A stretch of 64,000 nt of DNA from a virus. The position numbers were made by a program, and so were the translations under genes. Positions 1-61,710 of the stretch are shown piece by piece. The stretch lies in the IMG/VR virus record IMGVR_UViG_3300030098_001484, positions 3,000-66,999 of that record, one strand, 5' to 3'. The stretch's first letter is position 1. The number at the start of each line of letters is the position of its first letter. A model generated the notes under the pieces. The model did not search any database, had not been told where the DNA came from, and saw only the letters and a program-made list of their open reading frames with translations.

Positions 1-1424
1 GGCTTACCGCCGTATGGAATAATCATCACAGGATTCTTTGCAACTGTGGTAGTGTTAACCACATCCTCATTCTCAAGGAACACCTGACTAAACTCATCGT
101 CTTCCCCTGCTTCCCAAGCACGACGGTTCTCATCACAGATATCTTTCCTGAAGTCGTGAATCTCACCGTTAGGGTTGTTGATAAGGTTTGTACGTCGGGC
201 GTTAACCTCATCCCTAGTAGCAGCCGCAGTGTGCTGAAGGTTTGATGACACTTGGTCAAGCCTAATAGGCAAGTCCCAGTAACCGTCTTCCAAAGCATCA
301 GCATATGCGTCACATGCACTAAAGCATTTGAAAGTACCGGCTCCCTTACCAAAGCCATCCCACCACAGATCATAATGCTTAAGCGGGTCTTCAGCAACAG
401 CAAGGATACGGTCCTTATTGTTGTCAACCCACTCAACACGATGATCGAAGTGAAGTTTGTCCAACTTAACTCCGTCTGCTATAGGCAGTCCAGAACATGA
501 ACTGGCGATACCAACCTTAGCCCAATACCAGTCATCGTCTGTCTTAAGAATCTGTCCGTTAGCAAAACGCAACAAACTAGAAGCCAGATCATTACCTTGC
601 GGTGATAAGACATCGCAATAGTAATACATACGACCACGAAAGTCGATGTAAACAACCAGCCAGAAGGTCCGACCCTGCATCTCAGTAGCCACCTGTAAGG
701 CAACACCATGAGCATACTTATGAATCTCATGTTCATAAGGCAACAGCGTATGCTTAGCCAAAGCTAAGGTACGATCTGAGATAACGTATGGCACGTCTTG
801 TAGACCGTTCATCGCATCACAGATCCCTTGCTTTGTAACATTTTGCCACGTTCCGTGACTTATGCCGTGCCTAAGAGCATCAGTGAGATATCCACCCGGA
901 CGCTCAATAGTATGAGGCACAGGCGGCACAACCATAGGGCGACGATTCATTCCAATCATACCCCAAAGGTCGTGTTCCTCAAGCATGTTCTTAAGTGTGC
1001 TAGTGAGCCTAACAACAGTGGTATCCCCATGCTTAGTGTGGTTAAGGTCGATAAACCCAACCGAACGACAGGCATGTATAAGATTCCAAGATATTGCTAG
1101 TCGATCCTCTCGATCCATGTTAGGTGCTAAAGTTAACAACCTGCGTGACACTTCATTCACTACAGGGTGTGCTTGAGCCGTATCACCTTCCTTGGAGACC
1201 TTATCCAGAGTGGCACATGACGCAATCATTGACACTTCTCTAAGGCCCATCTTAAGGACACGTTTAGCCCACTTAGGAGGCTGACTGAAGCCACTGATCA
1301 AATCCTCCAGCCCTCCCTCAAGTTGGTCAACAATAGGATTAGGGTTAACACCCCTACCCATGATTTCTAACTCAAGGTTGCGCTGTTGGTCTAAAGCAGC
1401 ATCAGTAACAGTAACACATGACAT
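1..1424 (-). CDS. Second, divergent T7-like single-subunit RNA polymerase (3'-truncated by window edge; 474 aa visible)
   Basis: Manual translation from ATG 1424 (RBS AAGGGGA), open to position 1: RPMVVPP..GGYL, IDFRGRMY, SPQGND..LLRFA, DKLHFDHRVEWV, motif A LPIRLDQVSSNLQH, motif B AKNPVMIIPYG. Not in the ORF track. Confidence 0.93.
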   Translation of the reverse strand, partial: MSCVTVTDAALDQQRNLELEIMGRGVNPNPIVDQLEGGLEDLISGFSQPPKWAKRVLKMGLREVSMIASCATLDKVSKEGDTAQAHPVVNEVSRRLLTLAPNMDREDRLAISWNLIHACRSVGFIDLNHTKHGDTTVVRLTSTLKNMLEEHDLWGMIGMNRRPMVVPPVPHTIERPGGYLTDALRHGISHGTWQNVTKQGICDAMNGLQDVPYVISDRTLALAKHTLLPYEHEIHKYAHGVALQVATEMQGRTFWLVVYIDFRGRMYYYCDVLSPQGNDLASSLLRFANGQILKTDDDWYWAKVGIASSCSGLPIADGVKLDKLHFDHRVEWVDNNKDRILAVAEDPLKHYDLWWDGFGKGAGTFKCFSACDAYADALEDGYWDLPIRLDQVSSNLQHTAAATRDEVNARRTNLINNPNGEIHDFRKDICDENRRAWEAGEDDEFSQVFLENEDVVNTTTVAKNPVMIIPYGGK

Positions 1425-1458
1425 AACCAATCCCCTTATTTGAAAGGTTATTTATTAC

Positions 1459-1485
1459 GAGCCTTTTACTGACTTGCTCAGGTCA
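1459..1485 (-). ncRNA. Putative H-type pseudoknot in leader of second RNAP
   Basis: TGACCTGAGCAAGTCAGTAAAAGGCTC: TGAC/GTCA and GAGC/GCTC interleaved pairings. Confidence 0.45.
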
Positions 1486-1502
1486 ATACACAGTGTATTA
1501 AC

Positions 1503-2309
1503 TCAGTCCATGTTGGCTTCAAGAACCGCAGACTTATTAGCAGTCCGGCGACGATTACTCTTGTTAGACCTCAACAGGTGATCTGTATTAGTCCGCTGGT
1601 CGCCACGGTCCTCAACGTAGTTGCCTGAACGAGGGCCACTACCCATCTGAACCCCGTGAGGTTCCAATGCTTCTCTAAGGTTATTCATTGCGTCCTTAAC
1701 CGTTTCCCCAACACCGTACAACCCGACATATTCATGATCGGTGTTATACTTCTTCTTCTTGAAAGTACCGTCCTTCTTACGGATACCTTCACCAATAACC
1801 TCCATCCGATATCCTTCATCGGTCAAGGTTCTGGTAAGTCTGAAACCCTTAACCCAAGGCAACTTCGAAGGCTTAACTTCAGCCTTCTCAGTCTTACTCA
1901 GGTACTCGTTGATTAGGGTCTTACTACGAGTCCGCTTGCCGGGTTCAATACCGCAAACCTTAAGTAGCTCTTGCCTTGACATGGCTTCAAGCTGCTCTTT
2001 GGTAAAGGTCTTACCCTTAGACTTCTTGCCCCCAATCTTGCGAGTCTTCTTCGCAGACTTAGGCTTGTCCTCTGCGGTAACACCACGGTCCTTGGCCTTC
2101 TTGTGCTTATCTTCAAGATCAGCCACGGTATCCTTGGTATCACCAACAATCACACCAAGCCGGGCCAATGCTCTTTGAGTGGTGGCTTTACCATTCAGTT
2201 TCCACCGGCGGTTCAACTCTTTCAGAGCCTTCTTCCGCTTCTTGTCACTCTTATTAGCATAAGCGCAAAGCTCAGCGTTGGACATATAATTCATTGGTTT
2301 CTTACTCAT
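1503..2309 (-). CDS. Lys-rich early protein with HeH/Rho-N-like segment and C-terminal HicB-like segment
   Basis: 268-aa ORF; TKEQLEAMSRQELLKVCGI; GVGETVKDAMNNLREALE. Confidence 0.7.
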   Translation of the reverse strand: MSKKPMNYMSNAELCAYANKSDKKRKKALKELNRRWKLNGKATTQRALARLGVIVGDTKDTVADLEDKHKKAKDRGVTAEDKPKSAKKTRKIGGKKSKGKTFTKEQLEAMSRQELLKVCGIEPGKRTRSKTLINEYLSKTEKAEVKPSKLPWVKGFRLTRTLTDEGYRMEVIGEGIRKKDGTFKKKKYNTDHEYVGLYGVGETVKDAMNNLREALEPHGVQMGSGPRSGNYVEDRGDQRTNTDHLLRSNKSNRRRTANKSAVLEANMD

Positions 2310-2366
2310 GTTACTAACATTCCTTCATTCAAAGGTACATACATCGGGTACGCAACACCATGCTGC

Positions 2367-2449
2367 GTTCCCATTGGCAGAACTCGGCCTACCACGCATG
2401 TATACGTACATGCTTTGATGCCTTGTTCCCATTCGCAGAACTCGGCCTA
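2367..2449. repeat. Tandem 25-bp direct repeat (24/25 identical, period 58)
   Basis: gttcccatt(g/c)gcagaactcggccta at 2367-2391 and 2425-2449, intergenic. Confidence 0.85.
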
Positions 2450-2480
2450 TACATACGTACACATACTACGTTCACGTTCA

Positions 2481-2801
2481 CTATCTATCAAGTCTCCTTT
2501 CGTTGTCTTCTTTCCACTGCTCATACTCACGCATACGAGCCTTGAACTCTGATCTGGGAAGCCATGTCTGTATAATTTCCCGTGACTCAGGGTCGTCCAA
2601 CAAACCAAGCCTAATCTTTCTCAACGCACTACGATGACCCCCTCTTACCGTTGATTCATTATTATTATTTCCTGAATCAGGGTGAGGATCTTCGTTTAGC
2701 TTCTCCGCAATTACCTTATGCGGAGTAAGATCTAACGGAGACTTAGGTTCCGTAGCCTTACAAAGATTAGAGTCAATACGATCTCTAACAATTTTTGCCA
2801 T
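2481..2801 (-). CDS. Hypothetical early protein
   Basis: 106-aa ORF, RBS GAGG, co-oriented. Confidence 0.7.
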   Translation of the reverse strand: MAKIVRDRIDSNLCKATEPKSPLDLTPHKVIAEKLNEDPHPDSGNNNNESTVRGGHRSALRKIRLGLLDDPESREIIQTWLPRSEFKARMREYEQWKEDNERRLDR

Positions 2802-2893
2802 TACAGTTCAACTACCTCTTGTAAAATGAGTATGATAAACAAAGTAATAAGGCCCATACTCATGGCACATAATACTAATTCAATTACCCACAT

Positions 2894-3154
2894 TCAATTC
2901 TCCACTTTTATTGCATACATTCTCCGAAAGAAGTGCTTATCTTTGACACTCTTACGATACCAACGATTGCCTAGACCTTTGGATCTATTGCCCCAATCGT
3001 ATCTAAAGTCAGGATCTAGATTAATTCTGACATCCATGCAGAACTCACCGCAATCCCAAAGTACACGGTTAGTTCTACGTTCCGGTAAGAAACCAAGAAT
3101 CCACAGTAACATCCTGTGAATCCAAGGTTTACGAGGTTCAGTGTACATATACAC
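2894..3154 (-). CDS. Hypothetical early protein
   Basis: 86-aa ORF in the gene run. Confidence 0.55.
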   Translation of the reverse strand: MYMYTEPRKPWIHRMLLWILGFLPERRTNRVLWDCGEFCMDVRINLDPDFRYDWGNRSKGLGNRWYRKSVKDKHFFRRMYAIKVEN

Positions 3155-3167
3155 CTACCTTTCTGCC

Positions 3168-3383
3168 TCAATCAAGAGGCTCTATGCGTTCCCCGCTATA
3201 TTCATCGAGGTCAGCTTGCGTATAACCAGAGAACGTCTCTGGTGTATACTTCTTTTCTTTCTCCTTTCTGCAACTAACACAAACCCTGTCTAAGGGTATG
3301 CCTTGGCAATCTGTCATCCAATAAGACATTTGCCCTGACCCACAAGGGCAAGGCTTTGGTGGTCGTTCGTGAATACTACTCAT
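3168..3383 (-). CDS. Small zinc-binding protein (CPCGSG...CVSC)
   Basis: Start MSSIH with AGGAG RBS; SEC-C-like CPCGSG. Confidence 0.65.
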   Translation of the reverse strand: MSSIHERPPKPCPCGSGQMSYWMTDCQGIPLDRVCVSCRKEKEKKYTPETFSGYTQADLDEYSGERIEPLD

Positions 3384-3807
3384 CGATTGAATTCTCCTTC
3401 TTATCCATGCTGCCTTCCGCATATCCACAACCGTAACCATGATCCAACCCTTCACCGTGGCCCCATTCCCAGCCAACAGTAAACGCAACCTGCAAAGCCA
3501 GATCGAGTCTGCCATCCGTGTTTGCCCCGAGTTGTTTCATTATGAACTCAAGGCATTCATTGGCTTCCTCACCTTGGGTGGCGGCAAACCACTTGTCTCT
3601 GTTGCGGAAGACATTCAATGCAAAGTTGCCATCCAGACATTCCATTGATTTTATTAGCTTGTGATGTCTGGTATCCTCGCCGCTGCCATTACACCGATCA
3701 CAAATCCTGAACTCAACGGGATTTTCACGGCCTGCATCTGAAGGGTGATAGTATTCCATATCACCACTGCCATCGCAGAGTTGGCATTCAAACTTCTTAC
3801 TATTCAT
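3376..3807 (-). CDS. Protein with DnaJ-type zinc finger
   Basis: CQLCDGSG...CDRCNGSG; AAGGAG RBS before ATG 3807. Confidence 0.7.
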   Translation of the reverse strand: MNSKKFECQLCDGSGDMEYYHPSDAGRENPVEFRICDRCNGSGEDTRHHKLIKSMECLDGNFALNVFRNRDKWFAATQGEEANECLEFIMKQLGANTDGRLDLALQVAFTVGWEWGHGEGLDHGYGCGYAEGSMDKKENSIDE

Positions 3808-3845
3808 AACACAATGCTCCTTACCCATATGGGCAGTTAGGTTAC

Positions 3846-4070
3846 TCAATAAGGACGATGATGCCTCAATACATTCAAGGCACATTTAACATGCCGAGGC
3901 TTTGGGTAAGCCCCGGCTTTGAATAGTTTCCTTAATGATTTAGGTTGTTTTCTGTAGGAATTACTTTCCCATGCCGCATCAATAGCTAGAAAAACTAGCG
4001 TTCTATTGAGGACATTAGGGTAATCCCAGTCCAATCTAAACATCACATACCTCTGTTGTATCATACACAA
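3846..4070 (-). CDS. Hypothetical early protein
   Basis: 74-aa ORF with AAGGAG RBS. Confidence 0.5.
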   Translation of the reverse strand: MCMIQQRYVMFRLDWDYPNVLNRTLVFLAIDAAWESNSYRKQPKSLRKLFKAGAYPKPRHVKCALNVLRHHRPY

Positions 4071-4103
4071 TACTCCTTATTTATAATTACCACGATTTGT
4101 GGA

Positions 4104-4262
4104 TTAATAGCCCGGACGAGCCTTACGCAATACCTTACCTATCAAATCAAAACGTAAGTTTATGCGGCCAAAGTAACAAGACCGTGATTTACAGTGTCTT
4201 CTATTGAAGCAATGTAAATCTGTCTGCTTATGGCAGCCCTTACATAGCGTTTTGTTTCTCAC
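4104..4262 (-). CDS. Small Cys-rich hypothetical protein
   Basis: GTG start after AAGGAG; CKGC..C..C..C. Confidence 0.5.
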   Translation of the reverse strand: MRNKTLCKGCHKQTDLHCFNRRHCKSRSCYFGRINLRFDLIGKVLRKARPGY

Positions 4263-4298
4263 TTTATACTCCTTGTTAGTAATCACCACGATTACTAT

Positions 4299-4334
4299 CA
4301 ACGGTCCCATGTCCTCCTAAACATGGGACCGTTG
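4299..4334 (-). promoter_or_regulatory. Perfect 14-bp hairpin with AGGAGG in the loop
   Basis: caacggtcccatgt-cctcctaa-acatgggaccgttg. Confidence 0.6.
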
Positions 4335-4347
4335 TGGTATCCGTGGA

Positions 4348-4755
4348 TTATCTAATAGCTCTGGAGAATGAACCTTGACCAAGCACAACTAAAGGTGCTT
4401 CAGATTCAGGGGTCATATGGTTCTGCCTAATCACTTGGATATAACTAATTTCTGTTTGAAGTTTAGTTATGTGCTTCTCCATAGTATGTTCAATCCACTT
4501 CAAGAACTCCATAACCATCTCTTGAGACCATTCACCGGGTAAACACCCTTCATCTGGCATAAAGTGGTTAATCTTAGCTGAAGGATCAAAGGTACAATAC
4601 TGAGTCCTAGGATCCGACTCATCCCTATTAAAATGACACTCAAAGACTTGAGAAGAACCATCCCAGCAAAAGTTTAGGGTGTCTACCTCCAGAGCCAGCA
4701 TCTCAAGTAAATAACTCATATGTTCTTGAGGTGTAACTTCTTCGTTTCGTTCCAT
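4348..4755 (-). CDS. Hypothetical early protein
   Basis: 135-aa ORF with GGAG RBS. Confidence 0.7.
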   Translation of the reverse strand: MERNEEVTPQEHMSYLLEMLALEVDTLNFCWDGSSQVFECHFNRDESDPRTQYCTFDPSAKINHFMPDEGCLPGEWSQEMVMEFLKWIEHTMEKHITKLQTEISYIQVIRQNHMTPESEAPLVVLGQGSFSRAIR

Positions 4756-4801
4756 TTACAAACTCCATTTTCTGCTCCTTTTGGAGCGGTTAGGGTAAAC
4801 A

Positions 4802-4829
4802 CCACCAGTAGCCGTTAAGCTACTGGTGG
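4802..4829 (-). terminator. 11-bp hairpin, terminator or processing site
   Basis: ccaccagtagc-cgttaa-gctactggtgg followed by TGTTT on minus strand. Confidence 0.5.
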
Positions 4830-4870
4830 CAAAGGGTTAGGGGTTGAGGTTAGGGGTTATAAAACGACTA

Positions 4871-5305
4871 TCAACCGTTCTTCTTGGTCCACCACTCAAG
4901 AGTCTTGAGAGCAGCCTTACACTTTCTAGCAAATCCGTTGATATCTTGGTGCTTACCTTTCTTCTTCCACTTACTCATGGTCTTGACAAACTTAGCTTTC
5001 TGAGGGGACCAAGTAACAGACAGAGAACCATCAGGGTTCTCGGTCTTAGTCTGCTGCTGGACCCAACTTAGCAGCTTGGAACCGTCTGGAGCCAAGGGCA
5101 GTTTAGGGTGCTTAGTCTTAGACTTAACCGCCACTTTACCCTTAGCTTTCGAGGGCTTAGCTTTACCGTTAGACTTCTCTTGATTCTTGCAAATCTGGCT
5201 GATTCTAGGGGCTGAAATGCCATACTTATCGGCAATATCAACCTGTTTCATACCAGAAGTGTAAAGATCATAAATCTTACGGTTACGCTTCTTCAATTCA
5301 TTCAT
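4871..5305 (-). CDS. HTH DNA-binding protein (probable first early gene)
   Basis: RNRKIYDLYTSGMKQVDIADKYGISAPRISQI helix-turn-helix; basic tail. Confidence 0.8.
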   Translation of the reverse strand: MNELKKRNRKIYDLYTSGMKQVDIADKYGISAPRISQICKNQEKSNGKAKPSKAKGKVAVKSKTKHPKLPLAPDGSKLLSWVQQQTKTENPDGSLSVTWSPQKAKFVKTMSKWKKKGKHQDINGFARKCKAALKTLEWWTKKNG

Positions 5306-5413
5306 AACTTGTTGTCCTTTCTGGACTTAGGAACTGGGAAATAAGCAGGTCATCCACTGCGGATAACCTTAGGCTTACCTCTCTGCTACTGTTATGTTCT
5401 CACCTTATCTCCG

Positions 5414-5438
5414 TAAACCCCTGTAAATAAAGGGTTTA
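5414..5438. repeat. Inverted repeat in putative genome-end region
   Basis: taaaccc-N11-gggttta. Confidence 0.5.
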
Positions 5439-5576
5439 GCAGCATAAGATTACCCTAATCCTCGTTTTCTGTACCGTTATGGCGGTTGACCCTTGCTCCT
5501 AAGGGTAAGAAAAGGGGGCTACCGGGGGATGCTGCGGGCCAATCAAGTCTATACCCAGAAATAAATTCGTGACCCC

Positions 5577-5864
5577 CTAGTCGATTCTACGATCCTCGGC
5601 ATCTAGCTTACCCATACGCTCCCAATCAGGTTCCATCTCTTTCATGAGACGAATCATAGTCTCCAGACGGATGATACTGTTGTCCAAGGCACGGACACGA
5701 TCAATAAGCTTGACCACCATGCTCCAAAGACTGTTGAGCTTAGTAATCAAGATGTTCATCATCCATTTCATCATGCAATACATGAATAAGATCAAGATGA
5801 TTGCCATGAAGATTGGAAACCCAAGGGTCTCGATAAGATGTAAGAATTGTGTAACGTCTTCCAT
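5577..5864 (-). CDS. Membrane protein, holin-like (YvrJ-like LGFPI start)
   Basis: N-terminal TM helix then coiled coil; last late gene. Confidence 0.6.
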   Translation of the reverse strand: MEDVTQFLHLIETLGFPIFMAIILILFMYCMMKWMMNILITKLNSLWSMVVKLIDRVRALDNSIIRLETMIRLMKEMEPDWERMGKLDAEDRRID

Positions 5865-5986
5865 AGATGTCCCCCTAGATTAAAAGATATGTATATAGCG
5901 GGTTTCTCCCCCCAGAGCCTATAGATATTTATTTAGGTTTATAACGGTGAGTTATACCCTAGGTATCCTATAGCCCCATCCCATCA

Positions 5987-6024
5987 GAACCCGACACGAT
6001 GCCAAGGTCTATCGTGTCAGGCTC
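5987..6024 (-). promoter_or_regulatory. 14-bp RNA hairpin downstream of promoter motif
   Basis: GAGCCTGACACGAT/ATCGTGTCGGGTTC pairs fully with G-U only on the minus strand. Confidence 0.5.
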
Positions 6025-6050
6025 TCCCCCATGTACTCTTCATAGGTTTA

Positions 6051-6071
6051 TATACTATTATACCCGGTTAT
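6051..6071 (-). promoter_or_regulatory. Phage promoter motif, copy 1
   Basis: ATAACCGGGTATAATAGTATA, intergenic, 4 copies in window. Confidence 0.85.
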
Positions 6072-6086
6072 CCGTCCATCGGCCTT

Positions 6087-9000
6087 CTAGGGGTTCTGAG
6101 GGCCGATTTTAAAGAAACTGTCCGGTAATCGAAGATACGTAGGCATCTCATAGATTGACTCGAATACATCAGTTTCCTTCTGCATTTCAAAGAACGGATT
6201 GAAGATAGGCTTCTCGGGTTTCTTGGCAGGGTTCTTATGCAGCGACTGTTGCATATACCGCTGTTTTTCCAAGGGGGTAGTGTTTGGGGTGTTCGATGGA
6301 ATTTTCGGCTGAAGACGCGGTGTAACGTGATCCTCGAAGTTCTGAAGGATAGTTTCTCTCCATACTCTCATAGCTTCGTCTGGCCTATTATTATCAATAT
6401 CTTCTTTCATCATACTTGATAAAGCTAAGGCCAAGATTCTAGCTTGGTCCCGGTCATCAGGATTTACGTGATTAAAGAAGGCATCATTAATGGGAACCCA
6501 CCAGAATGCCTTGGTTGGGAACATGGCTTGATACAACAGATTGAAAGCATCACTAGCCTGAGCATCTCGCTCTCCAGACTTTAGGTCTCCCATTGTAGCA
6601 ATCCAGTCTTCCATGCCTACAGCTTTTGTAGCTTTGGTTCTGCCTTTTGTTAAGAAGTTGCCCTTACCCATACCTACCATTGCATTTGAGATCATCTTAA
6701 ATACGCCGGATGCTGGCATTTCTAGCGGATTGCTTCCATACGCAGGTTCACCTAACATTGGATTTACAACAGGTAAGACCGCCAGTTCTCTTACTATCTT
6801 ACTCCCCCATCCTAATACCGGAGCATGAGAACCCTTCTGGAATAGTTTAGCCCACCCATTTTCTTTCCATTCGGTTGCAATTTCTTCTGCTGATTTCTTA
6901 CCGGACTGAAGCTCCCTAACTTGCATATGTAACATCTCTAATGAAACAATACCTGCAATTAGAGCTAAGGCTTTTATGGCTCCTACTTCAGATGGATTCT
7001 TTTTCATATAAACATTAAAGAACGCTAAAGGATAAGTAGCATAGAAAGAGAATAATCTACCAAACCAATTCTTATTAAAGTGAGAATAAGAGGCTAATCC
7101 TCTCGGTTCTGGGGAAGCATCGTGAGCGTGCATTTCAATAAAGTTAATAAAACGATCAAACACATCCGTATACAGGTCTCTTTCTAACTTCCCAAACTGA
7201 TAATCAACGGAGTTCATTCGTTCAAACATAAGCGATTGATCCCAATTTGATTGGGTTGCTTCGCCCCATGTAAGAAGCTTTCTAACCATTGGCATCACAT
7301 CTAGTCCACTGTCATCAACAACAAGCCCAGCCCTAAACCATCTCATCGCCATTTCATAGCTTAGTCCTTCTTTTCTAGCTAAGCCTTTAATGTATCGTCG
7401 TTTTGCTTTAGCGTCCGTTAGCGATTTAAATTTAATAGGATCAAATGCTAGATTAAACGCTTCAAGTTTATCTAAATTCTTAAGAGTATTATACTTAGCA
7501 TTACCAACCGCAATATTCTTAGTTAGGTTTATGACTTGGCGTAAGAACGTAAACTCTGATTGCATTTTAGCCGTGGCCTCTAAGAAATTATTAAGTTTTT
7601 CCATAGCTCCGTCTGTAGCGGTATACTTTCTATCTTTACTCCACATTAATTTCCAAAGGGATCTAATTCGATTACTCCATTTAATATCGTACTCTACTCG
7701 ATCATCATTCATAAACTTAGCTAAGCCAGATCTTTCAATGTTATCGAACATAAAGGCAGTACCCTCAAGATTGGTATTTAAGTTAGATGAAGATCTTGGG
7801 ATTCCCTTAAAGGCTGTACCTAAAGCATTCATTAACGCTCCAGCACTTCCTGATCTAGCAATAATAGCAAACGGTAATTCAACTAAAGCAACTGCTTGTG
7901 AAATACCGCTTCCAAAAATAGCCTGAGCAAGATTGTTCATTGCTTTTACTGCTGTATCAAATTTGATGTTTGCATCATATACAGGCGTTCCAATCATTTC
8001 CTTATAAAGCATTTCCATAAAATCGACAGTTTCTTCGAGTGCTTTTTTAGTGGCGTGATCAGCAATTTTCTTACCCTTTGGTCCGGCTATCTCGGTTAAG
8101 CTTGCAACCCTATCTCGCATTAAAGAAAAGACATCTTCAAACCGTAGGTTCTTAAGTTGTTCTCCGGTAAATGGAGAAGCAATTGCCATTGTTTGAAGCC
8201 AATGATTTAATACATCTTGTGCATTAATTCTAGTTGCAGTAGTATTAGCGTAGTCCATAATAATCCGGTCCCACGACCAATCAAATTCTTTTAAGAATTC
8301 AGGATTATTTGCTAATTCTTCAGCAGAGAACACCCTTTCTTTTGATCCCATATTCGGTTGACCTATTTCATTTATGTACCTACGTTCTGCTCCAGCAACG
8401 TCTTGTCCAGCCTTAGAACCAGCAGCTTCGTGGTTTCTTCGCCTAGCCCAATTAATCATAGCTTCGTGTAATGCGGTTCGTTCTGGATTAATTCTTGCCC
8501 CCTTGGTATTTACATAATAACTAGTATCACCACCATAAGAAGCTTCTATTTTATCTCCAATAGAAATTGAATCCTCTGCTCCGCTATATTCAGCATTTAA
8601 GTTTTCTTCGCTAAATGTTTTAAATATTTCTGGCTTAGCCATAATAGGTTTAGTAGTATCAGGAGCTATAGCCTTAGCAGAAGTTTTTAACTCTTCAGGA
8701 GAGAACACTTGAATTTTACGACTCTTAGGTTTAAATACATTTGGTTCTCTTATTACAGAGATATCCAGAGCAGTCTTTGTCATAAATGGAGAACCTTCTT
8801 CAGTACCTACTCTAAATTGATTAGGTCCAAGCTTTTCTTGTAATTCATTAATAACCGCTGCTTCTCTTTGTTTAAGTTCTTTATATCGTTCAATGGATTC
8901 TTTATATAGCTGCCTCATTTTAAGAGTACGGGCTTGCATAGCCGAGTCTTGTTTAATAGGATTTCTTTCAACTGTAATTTGAGGATCCATCCACTGATCT

Positions 9001-12000
9001 TCAGCAGGCAATGTTTTATGAAGGTTTTCAATATCCCAAACTTCTTGCTTAATTGCTTGTAGCTCTTTAGCTAATGTTATGCTCTCAATAACAATTGGAG
9101 AATCCTTTTGAGATCTTAGTTCTGCTATACGTGCATTGTAATCAGCTAACAGATAACCGGGAGACTTTAAACTCCACTCTCCCTTGGTATGATCCCACTG
9201 CTCTCTACCTTTCTTTTTACCCGCTTGTTTGACAACCTCTTGCTTTTTAGCTTCTAAGTAAGCAATCTTTTCATCAATTGTTTTATTCTTAACTTCAGGT
9301 GTTGGCTCAACTTTAGTAATTGTAATACCATGTAGTTCTTCTGCTCGTTCCCGACCTCTAGTTGTTAATCTCCAACCTCGTGCTGAACGATCATATTCAA
9401 TGAAGCCGGTCTTTTTTAAGTGCTGGAATAAATTGTTTTGATAAGAAGCTACATTTTTTCCAATATCATCGCTGTAAGTCTTTGGAGCAAAACGACTTAT
9501 AGCTGGAATATCTTGTTTGGTAACGGGCTGAAAACTAGGATCAGCACTAACTAACGGCCTAATTTCCCCGAAGAATTGTTTAATAAAGTCAGCTTTAGTA
9601 AAGGTTGCATTTGTAGGATGGATTCTAAACCACTCAATAATATTTTTTTCTAGTGCCGTTTGAGGCTGGAATAATAAAGGCTTAGCAGGAACAAATACTT
9701 TTTTATCTTGATACTGTGTTAAGTTATCTAAAGCTTTCTTTAAGATACGTCTCTTATACATTAGAAGATTTCGAGTATAGTAATTACCTGTAGTAAATTC
9801 TTTTTTAAACGCCGGAACTCTATTATCGTTTGCGTAATTTTTAGAGAACCAATTAATTTTATTTACCATAGATGCAGAATCTCCAATATATCTCATTTGA
9901 GGTTCCATGAGTTGTTTATCTACAGTATTAAGTTCCTTAAGTAAAGAATCAAAAGGATTATCTACAAATCGGACAACTCCCTCAACAAACGTAGAATAAG
10001 CCTCCGCATAATTCTTGTAATGTCCTTGTAATAAAGATTCGGTTTCTTTCATGGTTTCGAACATAACTAAAGCTCTAAAGTTACCGATCATTGTGTCTTC
10101 TACAATATCATTAACTTGCTGCTCAGTTAGTTCTTTATATTTTGGATTCTTCTTTTTCTTTTCAGCTTCTTCTTTTAAAAGTCTCTTTCTAATTTGTTCA
10201 GCAGATTCGCTTACAGAATCAATCATTCTTGTTAAAGTAGAGTAAGTTCCTTTAATATTTTTAATTACGTCTCTTTCGATTGCCCCTATTGTTAGGTGCG
10301 TAGCAAAGGTTACATATTCTACCTCTTTACCGTAATGACCGCCCTTACTGGTTGGCATATCATATGGTAACAATAGTTGCTTTTCAAGCTCTGCTAAACT
10401 TGAAATTGGCTTAACAAAAGTATAACCATCGTTTTCGTTTAAAGCTCTGTTTACCGATATCTTAGTAAACTTAGTTGGTCCTCCATCGGCTGCTCTTGGT
10501 TTCCACTCAGGATATAAAGGAATAATATCCTGAATGGGCTTAATAATTTTTACTCCCTCCCATTTAATGCTCTTTCCAAAAATACTATTTAAAGAAATTG
10601 CTCGTCTTCTAGACGGGAGGTTTAATTTAGATTCTCGTAATTCACTTTCATATATCGCTTCTCGTAATCGCTGAATCCAACGATTAATGTTTTCCCTTAG
10701 AACCCGTACCTCTTGATCTCTATGCACAGGGCGGGAAATTCCAGTACGTCCGTCAGTTTTCATAGTTGTAGTATATAAATATTGCTTATTAATGGGTCTA
10801 TTAATAGAATCAAAATAACCAATTGCAGATGTATCTCCAGACTTAGCAATCTGTTCTTGAACATAGTTTGCATGCCAGTTCACAAGTTTTCTAACATCAA
10901 TTTCCTGTTCTTGTTTTAACTCTGCTCTACGTTGCTGTATGTCTTCGGCCCTAAACTTAAAGAAACTGTTAGGATTATCTTTCCATTTATTAGCACTTTC
11001 GTCCCACATGGCAGCGTCGGCATCGCCTTCAACAAGTAACTTAACCAAAAGATTAATTGAACGTCTTTCGTTTCGTTCTGCTGCACTTATACCTTTTTCA
11101 GTGGGATCAAAGAAATCTACTAACATTTTATTTAGACTTTGCCGTAACTCGTCATTTATCATCCTGTCTTCAGGACGCTCAGTTCGACTAGTCATTCGTG
11201 GCCTATCGGACACAGACATTCCTAATCTTTCGGCTTCTTCTGGGCTGATGCTAGATATTTTGCCCCTACCTATTTCAGAAGATCGTTTTCTTTTTCGGAA
11301 GGTTTCTTTGTATCCTGCCGCAACAGCGTACATAAAGCGACCTAATGGTACTTCTGAGTTGGCTCCAACACCGCCAAAGGTTTTGTCTTCTGACTTAAGC
11401 CTTCGAATTTTTCTCCACTTACCGTCCTCTCCCTTTTGTAATTTATGTGTAAACATTTCTCTACTAGCTCGGTGTAAAGCCATAGAGTCTTTAAATCCTA
11501 TAGAACTTGATAGTGGAAACTCTTTTATTAACTCTTCGGTTGTTAAGTCAATAAGCTTCTTAGGCTTACCTTTTTCATTCTTAACAATTTCTGATGTAGC
11601 CTTTTCAAACTGATCTTCAGTTAAATACCATAAACGCTTTAAGGCTGTAGGTTTACTGGTTGCTAACCAGAACAACTCTTCGAATACATCATCAAGTAAA
11701 TCTGCATCTACATCATGTCCTGCGGCTAACTCAGCACGGATAATAGAACTAATGCGTTGTTTAATGGCATATTCAATTCCCGGTTCGGTTTCCCATTCTT
11801 GTAAACCATACTTATCAGTTCTGCCCTTTTTACCCACAGCTTTTACTTTAGTTGCGTTTCTATTATATAAGAAGAATAAATCGCCAACAGTCATTGTTTC
11901 TTTGTTCTCAGCACCCGGAACAAAGTTGTAAAACTTATCATAAATATCGGCTTCATGCTTTGCTTCTTTAGCTTCTTTAGCTGCTATTTCTTTTTCAAGT

Positions 12001-29090: not shown

Positions 29091-29111
29091 TATACTATTA
29101 TACCCGGTTAT
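29091..29111 (-). promoter_or_regulatory. Phage promoter motif, copy 2
   Basis: ATAACCGGGTATAATAGTATA directly followed by AGGAG RBS. Confidence 0.85.
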
Positions 29112-49292: not shown

Positions 49293-49313
49293 TATACTAT
49301 TATACCCGGTTAT
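49293..49313 (-). promoter_or_regulatory. Phage promoter motif, copy 3
   Basis: ATAACCGGGTATAATAGTATA upstream of dUTPase. Confidence 0.85.
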
Positions 49314-56340: not shown

Positions 56341-56413
56341 TGGGCCGAGCCAGATTCGAACTGGCGACCTAACGATTATGAGTCGTCTGCTCTAACCGCT
56401 GAGCTACCGGCCC
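56341..56413 (-). tRNA. tRNA-Ile2 (CAU, lysidine type; reads AUA)
   Basis: GGGCCGGTAGCTCAGCGGTTAGAGCAGACGACTCATAATCGTTAGGTCGCCAGTTCGAATCTGGCTCGGCCCA; resembles ileX rather than Met tRNAs; no encoded CCA. Confidence 0.88.
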
Positions 56414-56417
56414 ATAA

Positions 56418-56490
56418 TACCCTCGGTGGGATTCGAACCCACACTGGATGGATTTTAAGTCCACTGCCTCTGCCGTTGGGCTACGAGGGC
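56418..56490 (-). tRNA. tRNA-Leu (UAA), short variable loop
   Basis: GCCCTCGTAGCCCAACGGCAGAGGCAGTGGACTTAAAATCCATCCAGTGTGGGTTCGAATCCCACCGAGGGTA. Confidence 0.9.
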
Positions 56491-57455: not shown

Positions 57456-57672
57456 TTGACTTTTCTCCTTCTTCGGCTTCTGTCTTTGTACCTTCAGTAA
57501 TAATACTAGTAATAGTTTGGTTAATTCCATCTGCCATTTCTCTCATAGCATTACTGAGATTACCGAGATAAGACAAAACAGCTTCCGTCTTAATTCCCGG
57601 TGGCAAGGATGGCCCGTCCATATCCGGGGCATTATCCTGATTATCTGTGACAACCATTGTCTCTTCTGTCAA
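57442..57672 (-). CDS. Hypothetical acidic protein
   Basis: TTG start with AAGGAG RBS. Confidence 0.6.
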   Translation of the reverse strand: MTEETMVVTDNQDNAPDMDGPSLPPGIKTEAVLSYLGNLSNAMREMADGINQTITSIITEGTKTEAEEGEKSNEEG

Positions 57673-58959: not shown

Positions 58960-59242
58960 GTTCTTGTCCCCTTCTAAGAGTTGACATTTCAATTATAATG
59001 TTACGAGGAATACTATGGACGGTTCCAGTATTATCCTCCCCTACAGTATCTGTTATAGCTACATACTCATCTGTCTCATGTAACACATAACCTATATTTT
59101 TAATTTTAGGTAACGGTTCATGAGCATATTCGTATGCGTCTTCTAATGATACCCACTCAGGACCACCCTGAGAATGAGCATCTACCCAAACGATTTCTCT
59201 TACTTCAAGCGAAGAGATAATCAGATTCGAGAACTCTCTCAA
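58937..59242 (-). CDS. Conserved small phage protein
   Basis: IVWVDA..W..IGYVLHE..IP family pattern; probable TTG start inside the RNAP 3' end. Confidence 0.6.
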   Translation of the reverse strand: MREFSNLIISSLEVREIVWVDAHSQGGPEWVSLEDAYEYAHEPLPKIKNIGYVLHETDEYVAITDTVGEDNTGTVHSIPRNIIIEMSTLRRGQEHDNEGNR

Positions 59243-61664
59243 TTCTGAAGTCACCTCTCCGGGGCAGTTCGGGCAATCGCAAGTTGAGTTCGTTCTCAAT
59301 GTCTTCCTTGAGTCGTTGCAGTTGGTTTTCCTGATGCATCTCATAGAATTCCTCCCTTATCAGTGGGACCAGTAGATCCATGTCCGGTGCAGGACAACCA
59401 TAAGAATCATGCACCATAGAAAATTGGTATATGCCAAGCATTATGGCTCGCCAAACAGTACAAAACATATGACTTGCATCAAGACTATGAATCCAGTTAG
59501 GAGAAATAGCCTGCATCACAGCCTTACGATCTACCTCGGTCTGACTGTGCGTTGCAAATATTAATTCTTTCTTATTAAATAACTCAGCAAAACTACGTCG
59601 CTTTGTGGGCTTAAAGTAAGCATGAACAACACGGAACCCAGAAGGAACGGTGTAAGTTATATGTTCATTTAAGTTAGCGGTTATTTCGCCAAGTTGTTTT
59701 AGATATTCTTTACCTCGGTTAGGCATCTCAAGAGCCTCGTCTAGCCCTACCTTAATAGCTCGGGCCAACTCTGTAATAGCAGCATTACGAGTATCTTTAG
59801 GAACCCAATCTAAATGTCCCTCAGATTTAAGATACTTCTGTATCCCATAGAAGGTTAAGCCATAAGCATCACACATAGTACTACGCTTAGTAACACTTCT
59901 AGGAATGTTGGCCTTCCAGTGGTTTAAGAACTTTATATAAAACTCATTATCCAACTGATTGGTATTGCAGTATGTAGTTACGGCATCTGCTACCGATTGG
60001 TACAGATCTTCAGGACTTAAATTAGCATCAACATTAGTTAACTTAGCGTTCTTCTCATCTCGCATAATAGCTGACCAATGTTGTGTACCATTGCAGGCTC
60101 CGTCCACTTGAACAGGAACCTGAGTCATTCCATCTTCTCTAAAGTAATCAAAGATTGCTGCGAGTCGTTGGAACGATGGGTTTTTCTTTACTTTATCTGA
60201 GATCCACCCACGATTATCATAAGGATTCTCACTTATACGCCGTAACATTTCGACGTTATCATCAAACCATTGTTCTCTTTGATCAAACGAAAACTTATCT
60301 TGGTCAAATAGATTTGCTATGTGTCTCTTCATCCATATTCGACCACGTTCTGTTTGCTTCCGTGCTTCTGCAAACTGAATTAAACCCACATCAAGATCAG
60401 AACCTTGACAAGATAACAATTCACAGGCGGTATACGCTCGTCCTCTAAAGTCTAAAGTATAAACCATATAGAAGAAAGAAAACTTAGCCATCTCTTTAGC
60501 TAAATTTAAACGAACTAACAAGCGACACCTATGTTGTTCAGATTTAAACCAACTAGCCCAATACTCTTCTCTAGCTACACACCACTTCGCTTGTTCTTCT
60601 TTAGATCCTTCTTCAGGATAAGGTTCATTATGCATAAACTCTTCTAAAGAATAAGCGGGAAGGTTGGCAAGTTGAGTATTATTTAAGAAGAAGTTTTCCA
60701 TAACTTCTAATACACGTTTATTGATAGACCATTCAGTTCGCATCTTAGCATTTAAACCATCCAAAACTAACTGACTAGGCTGTGAAAAACTCTGGGGCTT
60801 TAAATAACCTTCTTCGTAATCTGAATTATATCGTTGAACAACTTCTTTTCTAGCCCATGTATTTAAGTAACCACCGCTGGCCTGTAATGTATGATCAACC
60901 GGCGGAACAATCATCGGTCTAAATAATAAGTTACTAGTCTCTAATGCTGCATGTTTAGAGTGAAGATCCTGTAAGATATCAGGACGCAAGGTAACAAATA
61001 ATTTCTTTTTCCAAACCTTACCACCAGAATATCTTTGGTTAATCATTTGAAATATACCTGACCTCTCAGCTATACGTATCATATGATGACCAAAATCTTG
61101 GCGGTGCTTCAAAGGTAATTTATTTAACTTACCTACTTTCTTAGCAAAAGCCTTACATCTTTTTTCTGTCCAGCTTTTTATAAACTTAGACTGCTTTCTC
61201 CAGTCATTCCTAAAGTCAACCTTAGATTGTTGATAAGCTATGATAGCAAAAGAATCTTGGGCAATTATGTTGGCTAGTTTCTGTGCAGTAGGTAATGGAT
61301 AAGAAACATTTAAGAAACCAGAGAATTCTTTTTCCTTAAACATTGAGGCATGAAGCCACTCACGCATAAAGCATCTTAGCGTCAGGTCCGCCATCTTAGG
61401 CGCACCCAACGCTAAGAGCGGCAGCAACCATTTGGGGGTCTTATGATTGCTACATATCTTATCTATCCATTCCTGATAAAAAGGGGTGAGATGGACTACC
61501 GTAGCATCCAATAACTGCTGCTCCGGTAGCCCCTCATCTGGTGATCTCTCGTAATCTTTCCAGTAACGGGCCACACCACCCGATATCATCTCCTCTTCCA
61601 TGAGATTTTGGGTAGCTGTACGTTCGTTCTGCTCTGCTTCAGAGAGGTTGTCCCATAGTATCAT
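59205..61664 (-). CDS. T7-like DNA-directed RNA polymerase (gp1-like)
   Basis: PMIVPP, DFRGRAY, DGACNGTQH, RSVTKRSTMCDAYG, PNWIHSLDASH, HDSYG, YLFA C-terminus. Confidence 0.98.
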   Translation of the reverse strand: MILWDNLSEAEQNERTATQNLMEEEMISGGVARYWKDYERSPDEGLPEQQLLDATVVHLTPFYQEWIDKICSNHKTPKWLLPLLALGAPKMADLTLRCFMREWLHASMFKEKEFSGFLNVSYPLPTAQKLANIIAQDSFAIIAYQQSKVDFRNDWRKQSKFIKSWTEKRCKAFAKKVGKLNKLPLKHRQDFGHHMIRIAERSGIFQMINQRYSGGKVWKKKLFVTLRPDILQDLHSKHAALETSNLLFRPMIVPPVDHTLQASGGYLNTWARKEVVQRYNSDYEEGYLKPQSFSQPSQLVLDGLNAKMRTEWSINKRVLEVMENFFLNNTQLANLPAYSLEEFMHNEPYPEEGSKEEQAKWCVAREEYWASWFKSEQHRCRLLVRLNLAKEMAKFSFFYMVYTLDFRGRAYTACELLSCQGSDLDVGLIQFAEARKQTERGRIWMKRHIANLFDQDKFSFDQREQWFDDNVEMLRRISENPYDNRGWISDKVKKNPSFQRLAAIFDYFREDGMTQVPVQVDGACNGTQHWSAIMRDEKNAKLTNVDANLSPEDLYQSVADAVTTYCNTNQLDNEFYIKFLNHWKANIPRSVTKRSTMCDAYGLTFYGIQKYLKSEGHLDWVPKDTRNAAITELARAIKVGLDEALEMPNRGKEYLKQLGEITANLNEHITYTVPSGFRVVHAYFKPTKRRSFAELFNKKELIFATHSQTEVDRKAVMQAISPNWIHSLDASHMFCTVWRAIMLGIYQFSMVHDSYGCPAPDMDLLVPLIREEFYEMHQENQLQRLKEDIENELNLRLPELPRRGDFRIERVLESDYLFA

Positions 61665-61689: not shown

Positions 61690-61710
61690 TATACTACTAT
61701 ACCCGGTTAT
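61690..61710 (-). promoter_or_regulatory. Phage promoter motif, copy 4 (one mismatch), upstream of RNAP
   Basis: ATAACCGGGTATAGTAGTATA. Confidence 0.8.

What the first reader, a model, noticed from the sequence alone, without database searches (positions are those of the whole stretch)
1..945. The second RNAP is minimised and has an atypical active site
Counted from coordinates: RPM motif at aa 162 vs 249 in the main RNAP (87 aa shorter N-terminal promoter-binding domain), and RPM-to-DFRGR spacing 99 vs 156 aa (thumb region mostly lost). The motif A Asp is kept (D390) but the context is DQVSSNLQH, not DGxCxGxQH. Motif B Lys/Tyr are kept (K463/Y471), but the R627-equivalent is Thr. Known: the thumb supports processivity and R627 binds NTP phosphates in T7 RNAP. 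Inference: a short-RNA or primer synthesiser, DNA-entry motor, cofactor-dependent enzyme, or decoy for RNAP-sensing defences.
Basis: partly seen in the sequence, partly recalled or inferred. Interest (0 to 1): 0.75.

Follow-up and report, generated by a model that had tools for sequence, protein, structure and literature searches.

The report
Stripped-down second phage RNA polymerase
A marine T7-like phage carries, besides its normal RNA polymerase, a second, intact but pared-down polymerase that has lost its thumb and rebuilt its nucleotide pocket, much like the helper-dependent polymerase II of phage N4.

Summary
The gene is window <1..1424 (-), and its last 234 codons lie beyond the window edge. 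It encodes a 708-aa T7-type single-subunit RNA polymerase (RNAP2).

- **Size:** against T7 and the phage's own 819-aa RNAP1, RNAP2 lacks about 90-107 N-terminal residues and about 55 thumb residues.
- **Active site:** the catalytic Asp, Lys, Tyr and His residues are kept. The T7 R627 column is Thr here and Arg in 112 of 112 other polymerases compared. The T7 Y571 column has become Arg in the same subclade.
- **Not decaying:** 12 family members of 675-751 aa exist, 6 of 6 genes read as DNA are intact, dN/dS is about 0.2, and the AlphaFold model is confident (pLDDT 94).

Best reading: an active second transcriptase with its own promoter specificity that probably needs a helper protein, as N4 RNAPII does. 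A conserved ~270-aa gene always precedes it; the predicted complex got only weak support.

The two-polymerase layout of this phage group is already published (Commun Biol 2025, group AG-10.1). The anatomy of the enzyme was not in the passages I read. Promoter, timing and activity remain untested. The scan had noted this same stretch before, but nothing on other DNA.

The parts
1..1424 (-). RNAP2 gene, codons 1-474 and two bases of codon 475 of 708. It starts at the ATG at 1424 (an in-frame TTG lies at 1430) and continues 705 bases beyond the window's left edge (record 2297-2999, where motif C HDC 648-650 and the C-terminus lie).
   Evidence: Pfam PF00940 at 100 bits against a cut-off of 22
933..941 (-). 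RPM motif (aa 162-164), aligned to T7 Q269-P270-C271
651..749 (-). Thumb remnant (aa ~226-258): a loop plus one 12-residue helix, where T7 and RNAP1 have about 45 more residues
630..644 (-). DFRGR (aa 261-265), the T/DxxGR motif
231..257 (-). Motif A, DQVSSNLQH (aa 390-398). The Asp is kept. The T7 G538, C540 and G542 columns are Q, S and N.
147..149 (-). R426, in the column of T7 Y571. That column is Y in 112 of 112 other polymerases and Arg only in the four members that lost the R627-equivalent.
6..50 (-). Motif B / O-helix, TTVAKNPVMIIPYGG (aa 459-473): T459 in the R627 column, K463, Y471
1503..2309 (-). 268-aa basic protein directly upstream in the same orientation. It is the candidate accessory factor of RNAP2.
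   Evidence: Positional counterparts of 272, 270 and 259 aa in L003, L007 and L009. Homology is detectable for the first two. Complex prediction gave weak support. No Pfam or PHROG family.
2360..2449 (-). Two tandem ~32-nt elements upstream of the 268-aa gene and RNAP2. They may be a promoter or operator pair, or a structured leader.
   Evidence: 2 matches against 0.02 expected. Analogous tandem pairs occur in L003 and L007. RNA fold z -3.4.
59205..61664 (-). RNAP1, the canonical 819-aa T7-type polymerase of the same phage
61690..61710 (-). One of four copies of the 21-nt phage-promoter-like motif, this one just upstream of RNAP1. The others are at 6051-6071, 29091-29111 and 49293-49313. Assigned to RNAP1 by inference.

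Best explanation
RNAP2 is a catalytically competent second T7-type single-subunit RNA polymerase of a ~67-kb marine T7-like podophage. It has been pared down to a core: most of the thumb, most of the T7 151-205 segment and half of the N-terminal extension are gone. The intercalating-hairpin and specificity-loop segments remain, so it probably recognises its own promoter class, distinct from RNAP1's.

Its nucleotide pocket has been rebuilt. In the window's subclade the O-helix Arg (T7 R627) was lost and an Arg appeared at the T7 Y571 position.

Because the parts that stabilise T7's elongation complex are missing, it most likely works as N4 RNAPII does, with a phage-encoded helper. The conserved ~270-aa basic protein encoded just upstream is the candidate. 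It would serve a separate stage or gene set from RNAP1.

**Shown:** fold, motifs, truncations, conservation, synteny.
**Inferred:** activity, separate promoter class, helper dependence, the Arg swap as compensation.
For: **Identity and fold**
- PF00940 scores 100 bits against a cut-off of 22.
- The AlphaFold model has pLDDT 94.4 and pTM 0.93.
- It aligns to the T7 RNAP promoter complex 1cez at Z 35.1, rmsd 3.2 A, over 659 of 708 residues.

**Conservation**
- D390, K463, Y471, D625, H648 and D649 are invariant in the 124-sequence alignment.
- The family has 12 members of 675-751 aa.
- 6 of 6 genes read as DNA are intact.
- dN/dS window versus L003 is 0.20 for RNAP2 and 0.08 for RNAP1.
- RNAP2 lies upstream of RNAP1 in 6 of 6 related loci.

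**Truncations**
- N-terminus to the RPM Pro: 163 aa, against 250 in RNAP1 and 270 in T7.
- Thumb-bearing segment: 102 aa, against 159 and 155.
- All 12 members are short.
- The specificity-loop segment has 33 residues against 32 in T7. The hairpin segment has 15 against 19, with predicted beta-hairpins there.

**Precedents**
- N4 RNAPII is a minimal 673-aa enzyme with truncated thumb and N-terminal domain, and it needs gp2 and gp1 (passages of PMC4496689).
- N4 RNAPII also has DATSS in motif A and HDC in motif C.
- T7 R627S keeps 10-30% activity (passages of PMC8155940).

**Arg swap**
- The Y571 column is Y in 112 of 112 others. It is R in exactly the 4 members that lack the R627-equivalent.
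- Y571 is described as stabilising NTPs (introduction of PMC13757076).

**Helper**
- A 259-272-aa gene precedes RNAP2 in 4 of 4 lineages, with homology in 3 of them.
- Predicted complex: ipSAE 0.46 (runs 0.59, 0.30, 0.46), best control 0.00, partner pLDDT at least 61, contact agreement between runs at least 0%. The verdict was weak support. That mark was reached by 58 of 80 solved complexes and 2 of 110 mismatched pairs, but passes at 0.60 or under are more often wrong than right.

**Separate specificity**
- RNAP1's specificity loop is 37 of 38 identical (L003) and 29 of 38 (L007), where the 21-mer promoter persists. It is 16 of 38 in L009, where no 21-mer was found.
- RNAP2's loop is 21 of 42 and 12 of 42 identical in the same relatives, and the tandem element upstream of its operon diverges in parallel.
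Against: - No activity, expression or virion data exist. All holders found are marine metagenome contigs.
- No convincing RNAP2 promoter class was found. The only candidate is one tandem pair, which also folds well as RNA (z -3.4) and could be a leader or an operator.
- The complex prediction is only weak support, with no agreed interface.
- The L009 counterpart of the helper shows no detectable similarity.
- No homolog of N4 gp1 or gp2 was found (tblastn E 1.4 or worse).
- The Arg swap is a single evolutionary event, so its co-occurrence is not statistical evidence. I had no model coordinates to measure distances.
- Loss of the thumb, G542->N and R627->T could mean a weak or specialised polymerase rather than an mRNA synthase.
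- The physical genome ends are unknown, so I cannot say whether RNAP2 is an early or a late gene.
Confidence: 0.55

Rival explanations
1. RNAP2 is a low-processivity starter polymerase. It makes short RNAs, for example primers at a replication origin or leader RNAs, rather than messenger RNAs.
For: - The thumb is reduced to 42 of 87 residues and the T7 151-205 segment to 17 of 55.
- The R627-equivalent is lost and G542 is N.
- At most one tandem candidate promoter pair occurs in the genome.
Against: - N4 RNAPII has the same truncations and transcribes the middle genes.
- The phage has its own gp4-type primase-helicase (PHROG 239, E 3.8e-160).
- 8 of 12 family members keep the Arg, so the trait does not define the family.
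Confidence: 0.15
2. RNAP2 is mainly a DNA-entry motor, or a virion-delivered polymerase. It would pull in or first transcribe the 67-kb genome, as T7 RNAP and N4 vRNAP do for their phages.
For: - The gene lies between the giant ejection-protein-like genes (4219 and 2023 aa) and the early region with RNAP1, in 3 of 3 loci that reach that far.
- The genome is about 1.6 times T7's length.
Against: - A holin gene and nine small genes separate it from the giant gene.
- Nothing marks it as a virion protein.
- The genome ends could not be placed.
- Entry by transcription would still require ordinary promoter-driven transcription, so this is not a separate mechanism.
Confidence: 0.1
3. RNAP2 is an inactive relic or a decoy that only mimics a polymerase.
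For: - Several near-universal active-site columns are changed: G538, G542, Y571, R627 and S813 equivalents.
- It evolves about twice as fast as RNAP1.
Against: - Both metal-binding Asp residues, K631, Y639, H784 and H811 equivalents are invariant in the 12 members, except one Q at H784 in P0071.
- dN/dS is 0.20.
- Length and C-terminal register are preserved.
- The same motif-A and motif-C variants occur in active N4 RNAPII.
Confidence: 0.04

Closest known systems
Additional RNAP of marine Autographiviridae group AG-10.1 (Commun Biol 2025, PMC12361551; passages read; supplements closed)
   Same: - An extra, shorter RNAP gene upstream of the typical ~800-aa RNAP, among small unknown genes.
- It lies downstream of a giant gene (3274-5566 aa in the paper; 4219 aa here).
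- Enlarged genome, marine origin, no cultured member.
- This is almost certainly the same gene family.
   Different: - The passages I read give about 650 aa (708 here) and propose horizontal transfer.
- They do not describe the thumb or N-terminal truncations, the motif changes or a partner gene.
- They say AG-10.1 lacks an SSB gene, whereas this genome has a gp2.5-like hit (PHROG 112, E 3.6e-13).
- I could not check whether this record is in their data set.
Phage N4 RNAPII (gp15 + gp16; structure 6dt7)
   Same: - A minimal T7-type polymerase: 673 aa against 708.
- Truncated N-terminal domain (Pro of the PM motif at 125 against 163) and truncated thumb segment (115 against 102 aa).
- Motif A D-A-T-S-S, motif C H-D-C and a Y-x-L-S type C-terminus are shared with most of the family.
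- The fold matches at Z 21.2, rmsd 3.0 A, over 311 of 404 residues.
   Different: - RNAP2 is one polypeptide, not a heterodimer.
- It sits in a T7-like genome beside a full-size RNAP, not in an N4-like genome with a virion RNAP.
- N4 keeps the R627-equivalent.
- No gp1 or gp2 homolog was found.
- The free tree does not join them, although a joint clade is not rejected (AU p 0.31).
T7 RNA polymerase
   Same: - Same fold over 659 of 708 residues (1cez, Z 35.1).
- All four motifs are present.
- The hairpin and specificity-loop segments are present.
- The C-terminal register is the same.
   Different: - 175 aa shorter.
- The thumb, the T7 151-205 segment and half of T7 1-71 are missing.
- G538Q, C540S, G542N, Y571R, R627T and S813C equivalents.
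- Two family-specific conserved inserts, SGLPIADGxKLDK and FMGDKTWHN..GTEDEPxW.
Mitochondrial RNA polymerases (POLRMT, Rpo41)
   Same: Factor-dependent single-subunit polymerases of the same fold (Z 30-38). The N4 review lists them among T7-like RNAPs that rely on transcription factors.
   Different: They are much larger, with added N-terminal domains, and keep a canonical active site. They are not phage enzymes.

Membership tests
T7-like single-subunit RNAP (Pfam PF00940) | Profile match above the curated cut-off | tested here: met
   100 bits against a cut-off of 22, residues 319-686
T7-like single-subunit RNAP (Pfam PF00940) | Right-hand fold superposable on T7 RNAP | tested here: met
   Predicted model only (pLDDT 94.4). 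1cez Z 35.1, rmsd 3.2 A, 659 residues aligned; 1s77 Z 40.0.
T7-like single-subunit RNAP (Pfam PF00940) | Motif A and motif C metal-binding Asp (T7 D537, D812) | tested here: met
   D390 and D649, invariant in 124 of 124 aligned sequences
T7-like single-subunit RNAP (Pfam PF00940) | Motif B Rx3Kx7YG (T7 R627, K631, Y639, G640) | tested here: not met
   K463, Y471 and G472 are kept. The Arg column is T459, against R in 112 of 112 non-family sequences and in 8 of 12 family members.
T7-like single-subunit RNAP (Pfam PF00940) | T/DxxGR motif | tested here: met
   DFRGR 261-265
T7-like single-subunit RNAP (Pfam PF00940) | DNA-templated, promoter-specific RNA synthesis | not testable with these tools
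   Needs enzyme assays
N4 RNAPII type (minimal, factor-dependent) | Truncated thumb and N-terminal domain | tested here: met
N4 RNAPII type (minimal, factor-dependent) | Heterodimer of two gene products (gp15 and gp16) | tested here: not met
   Single 708-aa ORF in all 12 members
N4 RNAPII type (minimal, factor-dependent) | Common descent with gp16 | tested here: inconclusive
   The free ML tree puts the N4 clade apart and RNAP2 beside the RNAP1 clade (SH-aLRT 85, not starred). A tree holding RNAP2-core and N4 together is not rejected (lnL difference 11.07, AU p 0.308). I named that group after seeing the tree and the motifs.
N4 RNAPII type (minimal, factor-dependent) | Cofactors gp1 and gp2 | tested here: not met
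   tblastn of N4 gp1 and gp2 on the genome gave a best E of 1.4. A non-homologous helper is not excluded.
AG-10.1 additional RNAP (PMC12361551) | Extra short RNAP upstream of the typical RNAP and downstream of a giant gene, in an enlarged marine Autographiviridae genome | tested here: met
AG-10.1 additional RNAP (PMC12361551) | Membership of the authors' AG-10.1 core-gene clade | not testable with these tools
   Their genome list is in supplements, which are closed

The most novel reading that the evidence does not exclude
In the window's subclade the nucleotide pocket has been re-engineered. The Arg has moved from the O-helix (R627 column, otherwise R in 112 of 112) to the Y571 column (otherwise Y in 112 of 112), and the G538 and G542 columns are Q and N. 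A thumb-less, helper-loaded polymerase of this kind could have altered substrate chemistry, such as relaxed sugar selection or an unusual initiating nucleotide. It would act as the first step of a two-polymerase cascade that switches on RNAP1.
Probability: 0.12. Interest if true: 0.75.

Novelty: new variant of a known kind. Interest (0 to 1): 0.5.

Why it matters
- **Minimal working core.** Single-subunit polymerases are the workhorses of RNA manufacture. This is a natural single-chain enzyme that is 175 aa shorter than T7's, lacks the thumb and has a rebuilt triphosphate pocket. It shows which parts are dispensable and offers a new scaffold.
- **Phage biology.** A T7-like phage with two phage polymerases implies a transcription cascade unlike T7 (host enzyme, then one phage enzyme). 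It resembles N4 in using a minimal, probably helper-dependent enzyme.
- **Active-site rules.** The apparent relocation of an otherwise invariant Arg is a testable case of active-site compensation.
- **Abundance.** The group is reported as globally distributed in the ocean (PMC12361551, passage).

Tried and rejected
- **Cultured relatives.** tblastn of RNAP2 against 50,697 phage records matched 2666 records, all under 60% identity. The best hit, Stappia phage SI01 at 26.5%, has only one annotated RNAP, in the phiKMV-like position.
- **Second promoter class.** Exact 11-mers and 16-mers with up to 4 mismatches over 31 intergenic stretches found only the 21-mer family and ribosome-binding sites. 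Two degenerate 21-mer-like sites at record ~1067 and ~1116 are not conserved in L003 and were dropped.
- **Sigma-70 and terminator scans.** Promoter-like counts were within chance: 14 against 12.3 expected, and 4 against 7.5. Terminator-like sites were more frequent than in shuffles in window 2500-6500: 10 against 3.1.
- **Genome ends and timing.** No RNA holder was listed. Only Logan contigs were available. They break only at the tRNA gene and otherwise run continuously across record 613-12000. The physical ends, and whether RNAP2 is early or late, stay open.
- **A third polymerase domain in the giant protein.** No Pfam or PHROG family matched the 4219-aa or the 2023-aa protein.
- **N4 cofactors.** No homolog was found.
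- **dN/dS for distant pairs.** dS is saturated and not computable. Even the window-L003 value rests on a dS of 1.7.
- **Rejected idea.** I first thought the AT-rich recognition loop was deleted. The alignment shows that segment (T7 93-101) is present in length in both RNAP1 and RNAP2, only not basic.
- **Papers.** Two searches for two-RNAP T7-like phages found PMC12361551 as the only description. I read passages of it, not the whole text or supplements.
Full report
**What is there.** The window is bases 3000-66999 of a 66,999-bp IMG/VR virus record rated 100% complete, with a 99-bp direct terminal repeat. All called genes lie on the minus strand. The ORF at window 3..1430 (-) runs off the window. 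In the full record it is record 2297-4429, giving 710 aa from a TTG or 708 aa from the ATG at window 1424. The 708-aa form is the one in the protein database (P0003). I call it RNAP2. The phage's canonical polymerase, RNAP1, is window 59205-61664 (-), 819 aa.

The genome is T7-like by PHROG matches. After RNAP1 come a gp2.5-like SSB, primase-helicase, DNA polymerase, exonuclease and ribonucleotide reductase. Then come portal, scaffold, capsid, tail tube A and B, fibres and large terminase. Last are unmatched proteins of 407, 272, 2023 and 4219 aa.

**Checking the observation.** DQVSSNLQH has D390, and K463, Y471 and T459 fall where stated. Alignment with T7 RNAP, fetched from NC_001604, gives these equivalences:

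| T7 | RNAP2 |
|---|---|
| P270 | P163 |
| R425 | R265 |
| D537 | D390 |
| R627 | T459 |
| K631 | K463 |
| Y639 | Y471 |
| H784 | H622 |
| H811 / D812 | H648 / D649 |

Segment lengths:

| Segment | RNAP2 | RNAP1 | T7 |
|---|---|---|---|
| N-terminus to the RPM Pro | 163 | 250 | 270 |
| RPM Pro to last Arg of DxxGR (holds the thumb) | 102 | 159 | 155 |
| DxxGR to motif A | 125 | 112 | 112 |
| Motif C to the end | 59 | 66 | 71 |

I mapped the losses onto T7 segments.

| T7 segment | RNAP2 residues | T7 | RNAP1 |
|---|---|---|---|
| 1-71 | 29 | 71 | 49 |
| 151-205 | 17 | 55 | 47 |
| 325-411 (thumb) | 42 | 87 | 86 |
| 228-246 (intercalating hairpin) | 15 | 19 | 21 |
| 739-770 (specificity loop) | 33 | 32 | 30 |

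The AT-rich-loop segment (T7 93-101) is present in length. So the loss is not mainly in the promoter-contact elements.

**How unusual the active site is.** I aligned 124 sequences: the 12 family members, RNAP1 and 111 others that I picked from roughly 216 retrieved. Counts are for the 112 non-family rows.

| T7 column | Non-family rows (n = 112) | RNAP2 (window) |
|---|---|---|
| R627 | R in 112 | T |
| G538 | G in 109 | Q |
| G542 | G in 107 | N |
| S813 | S in 95, C in 6 | C |
| Y571 | Y in 112 | R |

Within the family the changes are graded:
- P0073 and P0074 are canonical (DGTCNGQQH, HDS).
- The ten core members have Q, A or C after the Asp, and HDC in motif C.
- Only P0003-P0006 lack the Arg (T, A, S, S).
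- Those same four have Arg at the Y571 column. The other core members have His there.

**It is a maintained gene.**
- Seven proteins of 700-710 aa including self, at 39-100% identity, came from the word-indexed search.
- A profile search of 1.84 billion representatives added P0070-P0074.
- D390, K463, Y471, D625, H648 and D649 are invariant in all 124 sequences.
- Six of six genes available as DNA (window, L003, L004, L005, L007, L009) are open with one terminal stop. L008 is cut by its contig end.
- Nei-Gojobori dN/dS between the window and L003 is 0.20 for RNAP2 (dN 0.34, dS 1.74) and 0.08 for RNAP1 (dN 0.16, dS 1.97). dS is near saturation, so these values are rough. More distant pairs could not be computed.
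- RNAP2 diverges faster than RNAP1: 60, 39 and 32% identity against 78, 67 and 50% in the same relatives.

**Structure.** AlphaFold2 with the 124-row alignment gave pLDDT 94.4 and pTM 0.93. The lowest internal confidence (73) falls in residues 231-240, the thumb remnant. Between the helix at 217-226 and the strand at 258-261 the model has only a loop and one helix (238-249). T7 has about 88 residues in that span.

| Method | Chain | Score |
|---|---|---|
| Foldseek | 1cez, T7 promoter complex | TM 0.78 normalised to the query |
| VIA-align | 1cez | Z 35.1, rmsd 3.2 A, 659 residues |
| VIA-align | 1s77, T7 elongation complex | Z 40.0, rmsd 2.7 A, 501 residues |
| VIA-align | 6dt7_B, N4 RNAPII gp16 | Z 21.2, rmsd 3.0 A, 311 of 404 residues |

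Beta-hairpins are predicted at 125-140 and at 579-603, where the T7 hairpin and specificity loop align.

**Comparison with N4 RNAPII.** The N4 review (PMC4496689, passages) describes RNAPII (gp15 269 aa plus gp16 404 aa) as a minimal member with a truncated thumb and N-terminal domain. It binds only single-stranded DNA on its own and is recruited by gp2, with gp1 also needed.

Aligned here, gp15 has its PM motif at 125 and a 115-aa thumb-bearing segment. gp16 has VALDATSSGLQ, VHDC and a ...YALS end. These traits recur in RNAP2's family (DATSSNNQH, IHDC...YMLS). N4 keeps the R627-equivalent.

Overall similarity to gp16 is low: 40 bits, against 133 bits to RNAP1.

*Tree.* I built an ML tree of the C-terminal 390-530 residues. 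It had 57 rows: 12 family, 4 RNAP1, T7, 6 N4-like large subunits and 34 hand-picked others. 389 of 966 columns were kept, using the quick method.
- The ten core members form a clade (100*).
- They sit inside a 99* group with P0073, P0074 and three longer proteins.
- That group is sister to the RNAP1 clade at SH-aLRT 85, not starred.
- The N4 clade lies apart.

*AU test.* The test does not reject a tree that holds RNAP2-core and N4 together (lnL difference 11.07, p 0.308). I named that group after seeing the data. Duplication within the lineage, or transfer from an N4-like source, therefore remains open.

**Is the altered pocket compatible with activity?**
- PMC8155940 (passages) reports T7 R627S at 10-30% of wild type in a coupled assay. 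Its table links R627 to NTP phosphate contacts and ddNTP incorporation, and G542 to the 2'-OH.
- The introduction of PMC13757076 says Y571 helps stabilise NTPs.
- The four sequences that lost the O-helix Arg gained an Arg at the Y571 column. This is consistent with a relocated phosphate contact. It is an inference from one evolutionary event, without measured geometry.

**Context and likely partners.** In 6 of 6 related loci RNAP2 lies 4-6 kb upstream of RNAP1 in the same orientation. In the 3 loci that reach far enough it lies downstream of the giant gene.

*Candidate helper.* A 259-272-aa gene ends just upstream of RNAP2 in the window, L003, L007 and L009.
- The first three are homologous, with 41 invariant columns.
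- The L009 protein shows no similarity.
- None matches Pfam or PHROGs.
- The complex prediction of RNAP2 with the 268-aa protein scored 0.46 (runs 0.59, 0.30, 0.46) against a best control of 0.00. Partner pLDDT was at least 61, and the runs agreed in at least 0% of contacts.
- The tool's verdict was weak support. The mark was reached by 58 of 80 solved complexes and 2 of 110 mismatches, but passes at 0.60 or below are more often wrong than right.

*Tandem elements.* Two ~32-nt tandem elements lie upstream of this two-gene cassette, at window 2360-2391 and 2418-2449. There are 2 matches against 0.02 expected. L003 and L007 have analogous pairs with a shared core. The stretch also folds well as RNA (z -3.4).

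*The 21-mer promoter.* A 21-nt motif occurs four times on the coding strand at gene boundaries, including just upstream of RNAP1. It persists in L003 with 1 mismatch and in L007 with 3-5, but not in L009.

| Relative | RNAP1 specificity loop identical | RNAP2 specificity loop identical |
|---|---|---|
| L003 type | 37 of 38 | 21 of 42 |
| L007 type | 29 of 38 | 12 of 42 |
| L009 type | 16 of 38 | 13 of 39 |

RNAP1's loop tracks the 21-mer, so I assign the 21-mer to RNAP1. I suspect a different, faster-evolving target for RNAP2. Both assignments are inferences.

**What is already known.** PMC12361551 (Commun Biol 2025; passages) reports that 23 members of marine Autographiviridae group AG-10.1 carry an additional RNAP.
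- The group has no cultured member, has enlarged genomes and carries a 3274-5566-aa gene.
- The extra RNAP is about 650 aa. It lies upstream of the typical RNAP and downstream of the large gene, among small unknown genes.
- The authors suggest horizontal transfer and different roles for the two enzymes.

This phage fits that description: its DNA holders are marine metagenomes, and its layout matches. So the two-polymerase layout is published. The passages I read do not describe the truncations, the active-site changes, the parallel with N4 RNAPII or the partner gene. I did not read the whole paper, and its supplements are closed.

**Verdict.** RNAP2 is a conserved, very probably active, pared-down polymerase whose closest functional parallel is N4 RNAPII. 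Helper dependence and a separate promoter class are the best-supported but unproven mechanism. The decoy and decay readings are unlikely. Its temporal class is unknown because the genome ends could not be placed.

Noticed in passing
L002:1212-1273 (-), i.e. record bases 1212-1273, outside the window: Pistol ribozyme match (Rfam RF02679, 42.4 bits against a gathering score of 34.5, E 2.4e-4). It lies in a ~270-nt non-coding block that is about 90% identical to L003, although the flanking proteins are only ~60% identical.
   Followed up: partly
L002:~790-900 (-): A second non-coding block is highly conserved with L003. It has no Rfam match and may be another structured RNA.
   Followed up: no
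L002:575-649 (-); window 56341-56413 and 56418-56490 (-): tRNA-Arg(TCT) directly preceded by a sigma-70-like promoter (CTAACA, 17 nt, TG-TATAAT). Two more tRNA genes lie in the replication region. Metagenome contigs break only at the tRNA-Arg.
   Followed up: partly
window 6051-6071, 29091-29111, 49293-49313, 61690-61710 (-): A 21-nt promoter-like motif containing TATAAT stands at four gene boundaries, one of them directly upstream of the RNAP1 gene. It is conserved in L003 and L007 at the same places. This implies autoregulation of RNAP1 or activation by another polymerase.
   Followed up: partly
window 6087-18746 (-) and 18746-24817 (-): Proteins of 4219 and 2023 aa have no Pfam or PHROG match at all. 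The C-terminal third of the giant protein is conserved in L003, L007 and L009.
   Followed up: partly
window 56934-57530 (-): gp2.5-like SSB hit (PHROG 112, E 3.6e-13). The published description of group AG-10.1 says the SSB gene is absent.
   Followed up: no
window 3376-3885 (-) and 4871-5305 (-): Two small proteins lie in the RNAP2 module. One has DnaJ-type CxxCxGxG zinc-finger repeats (Pfam 19.7 bits, below the cut-off of 32.7). The other is an HTH protein with weak Mor and sigma-70 region 4 matches, also below cut-off. Both are possible regulators.
   Followed up: no
window 1-6000 versus the rest: G+C is 43-47% in the RNAP2 module against 35-38% in the structural genes.
   Followed up: no
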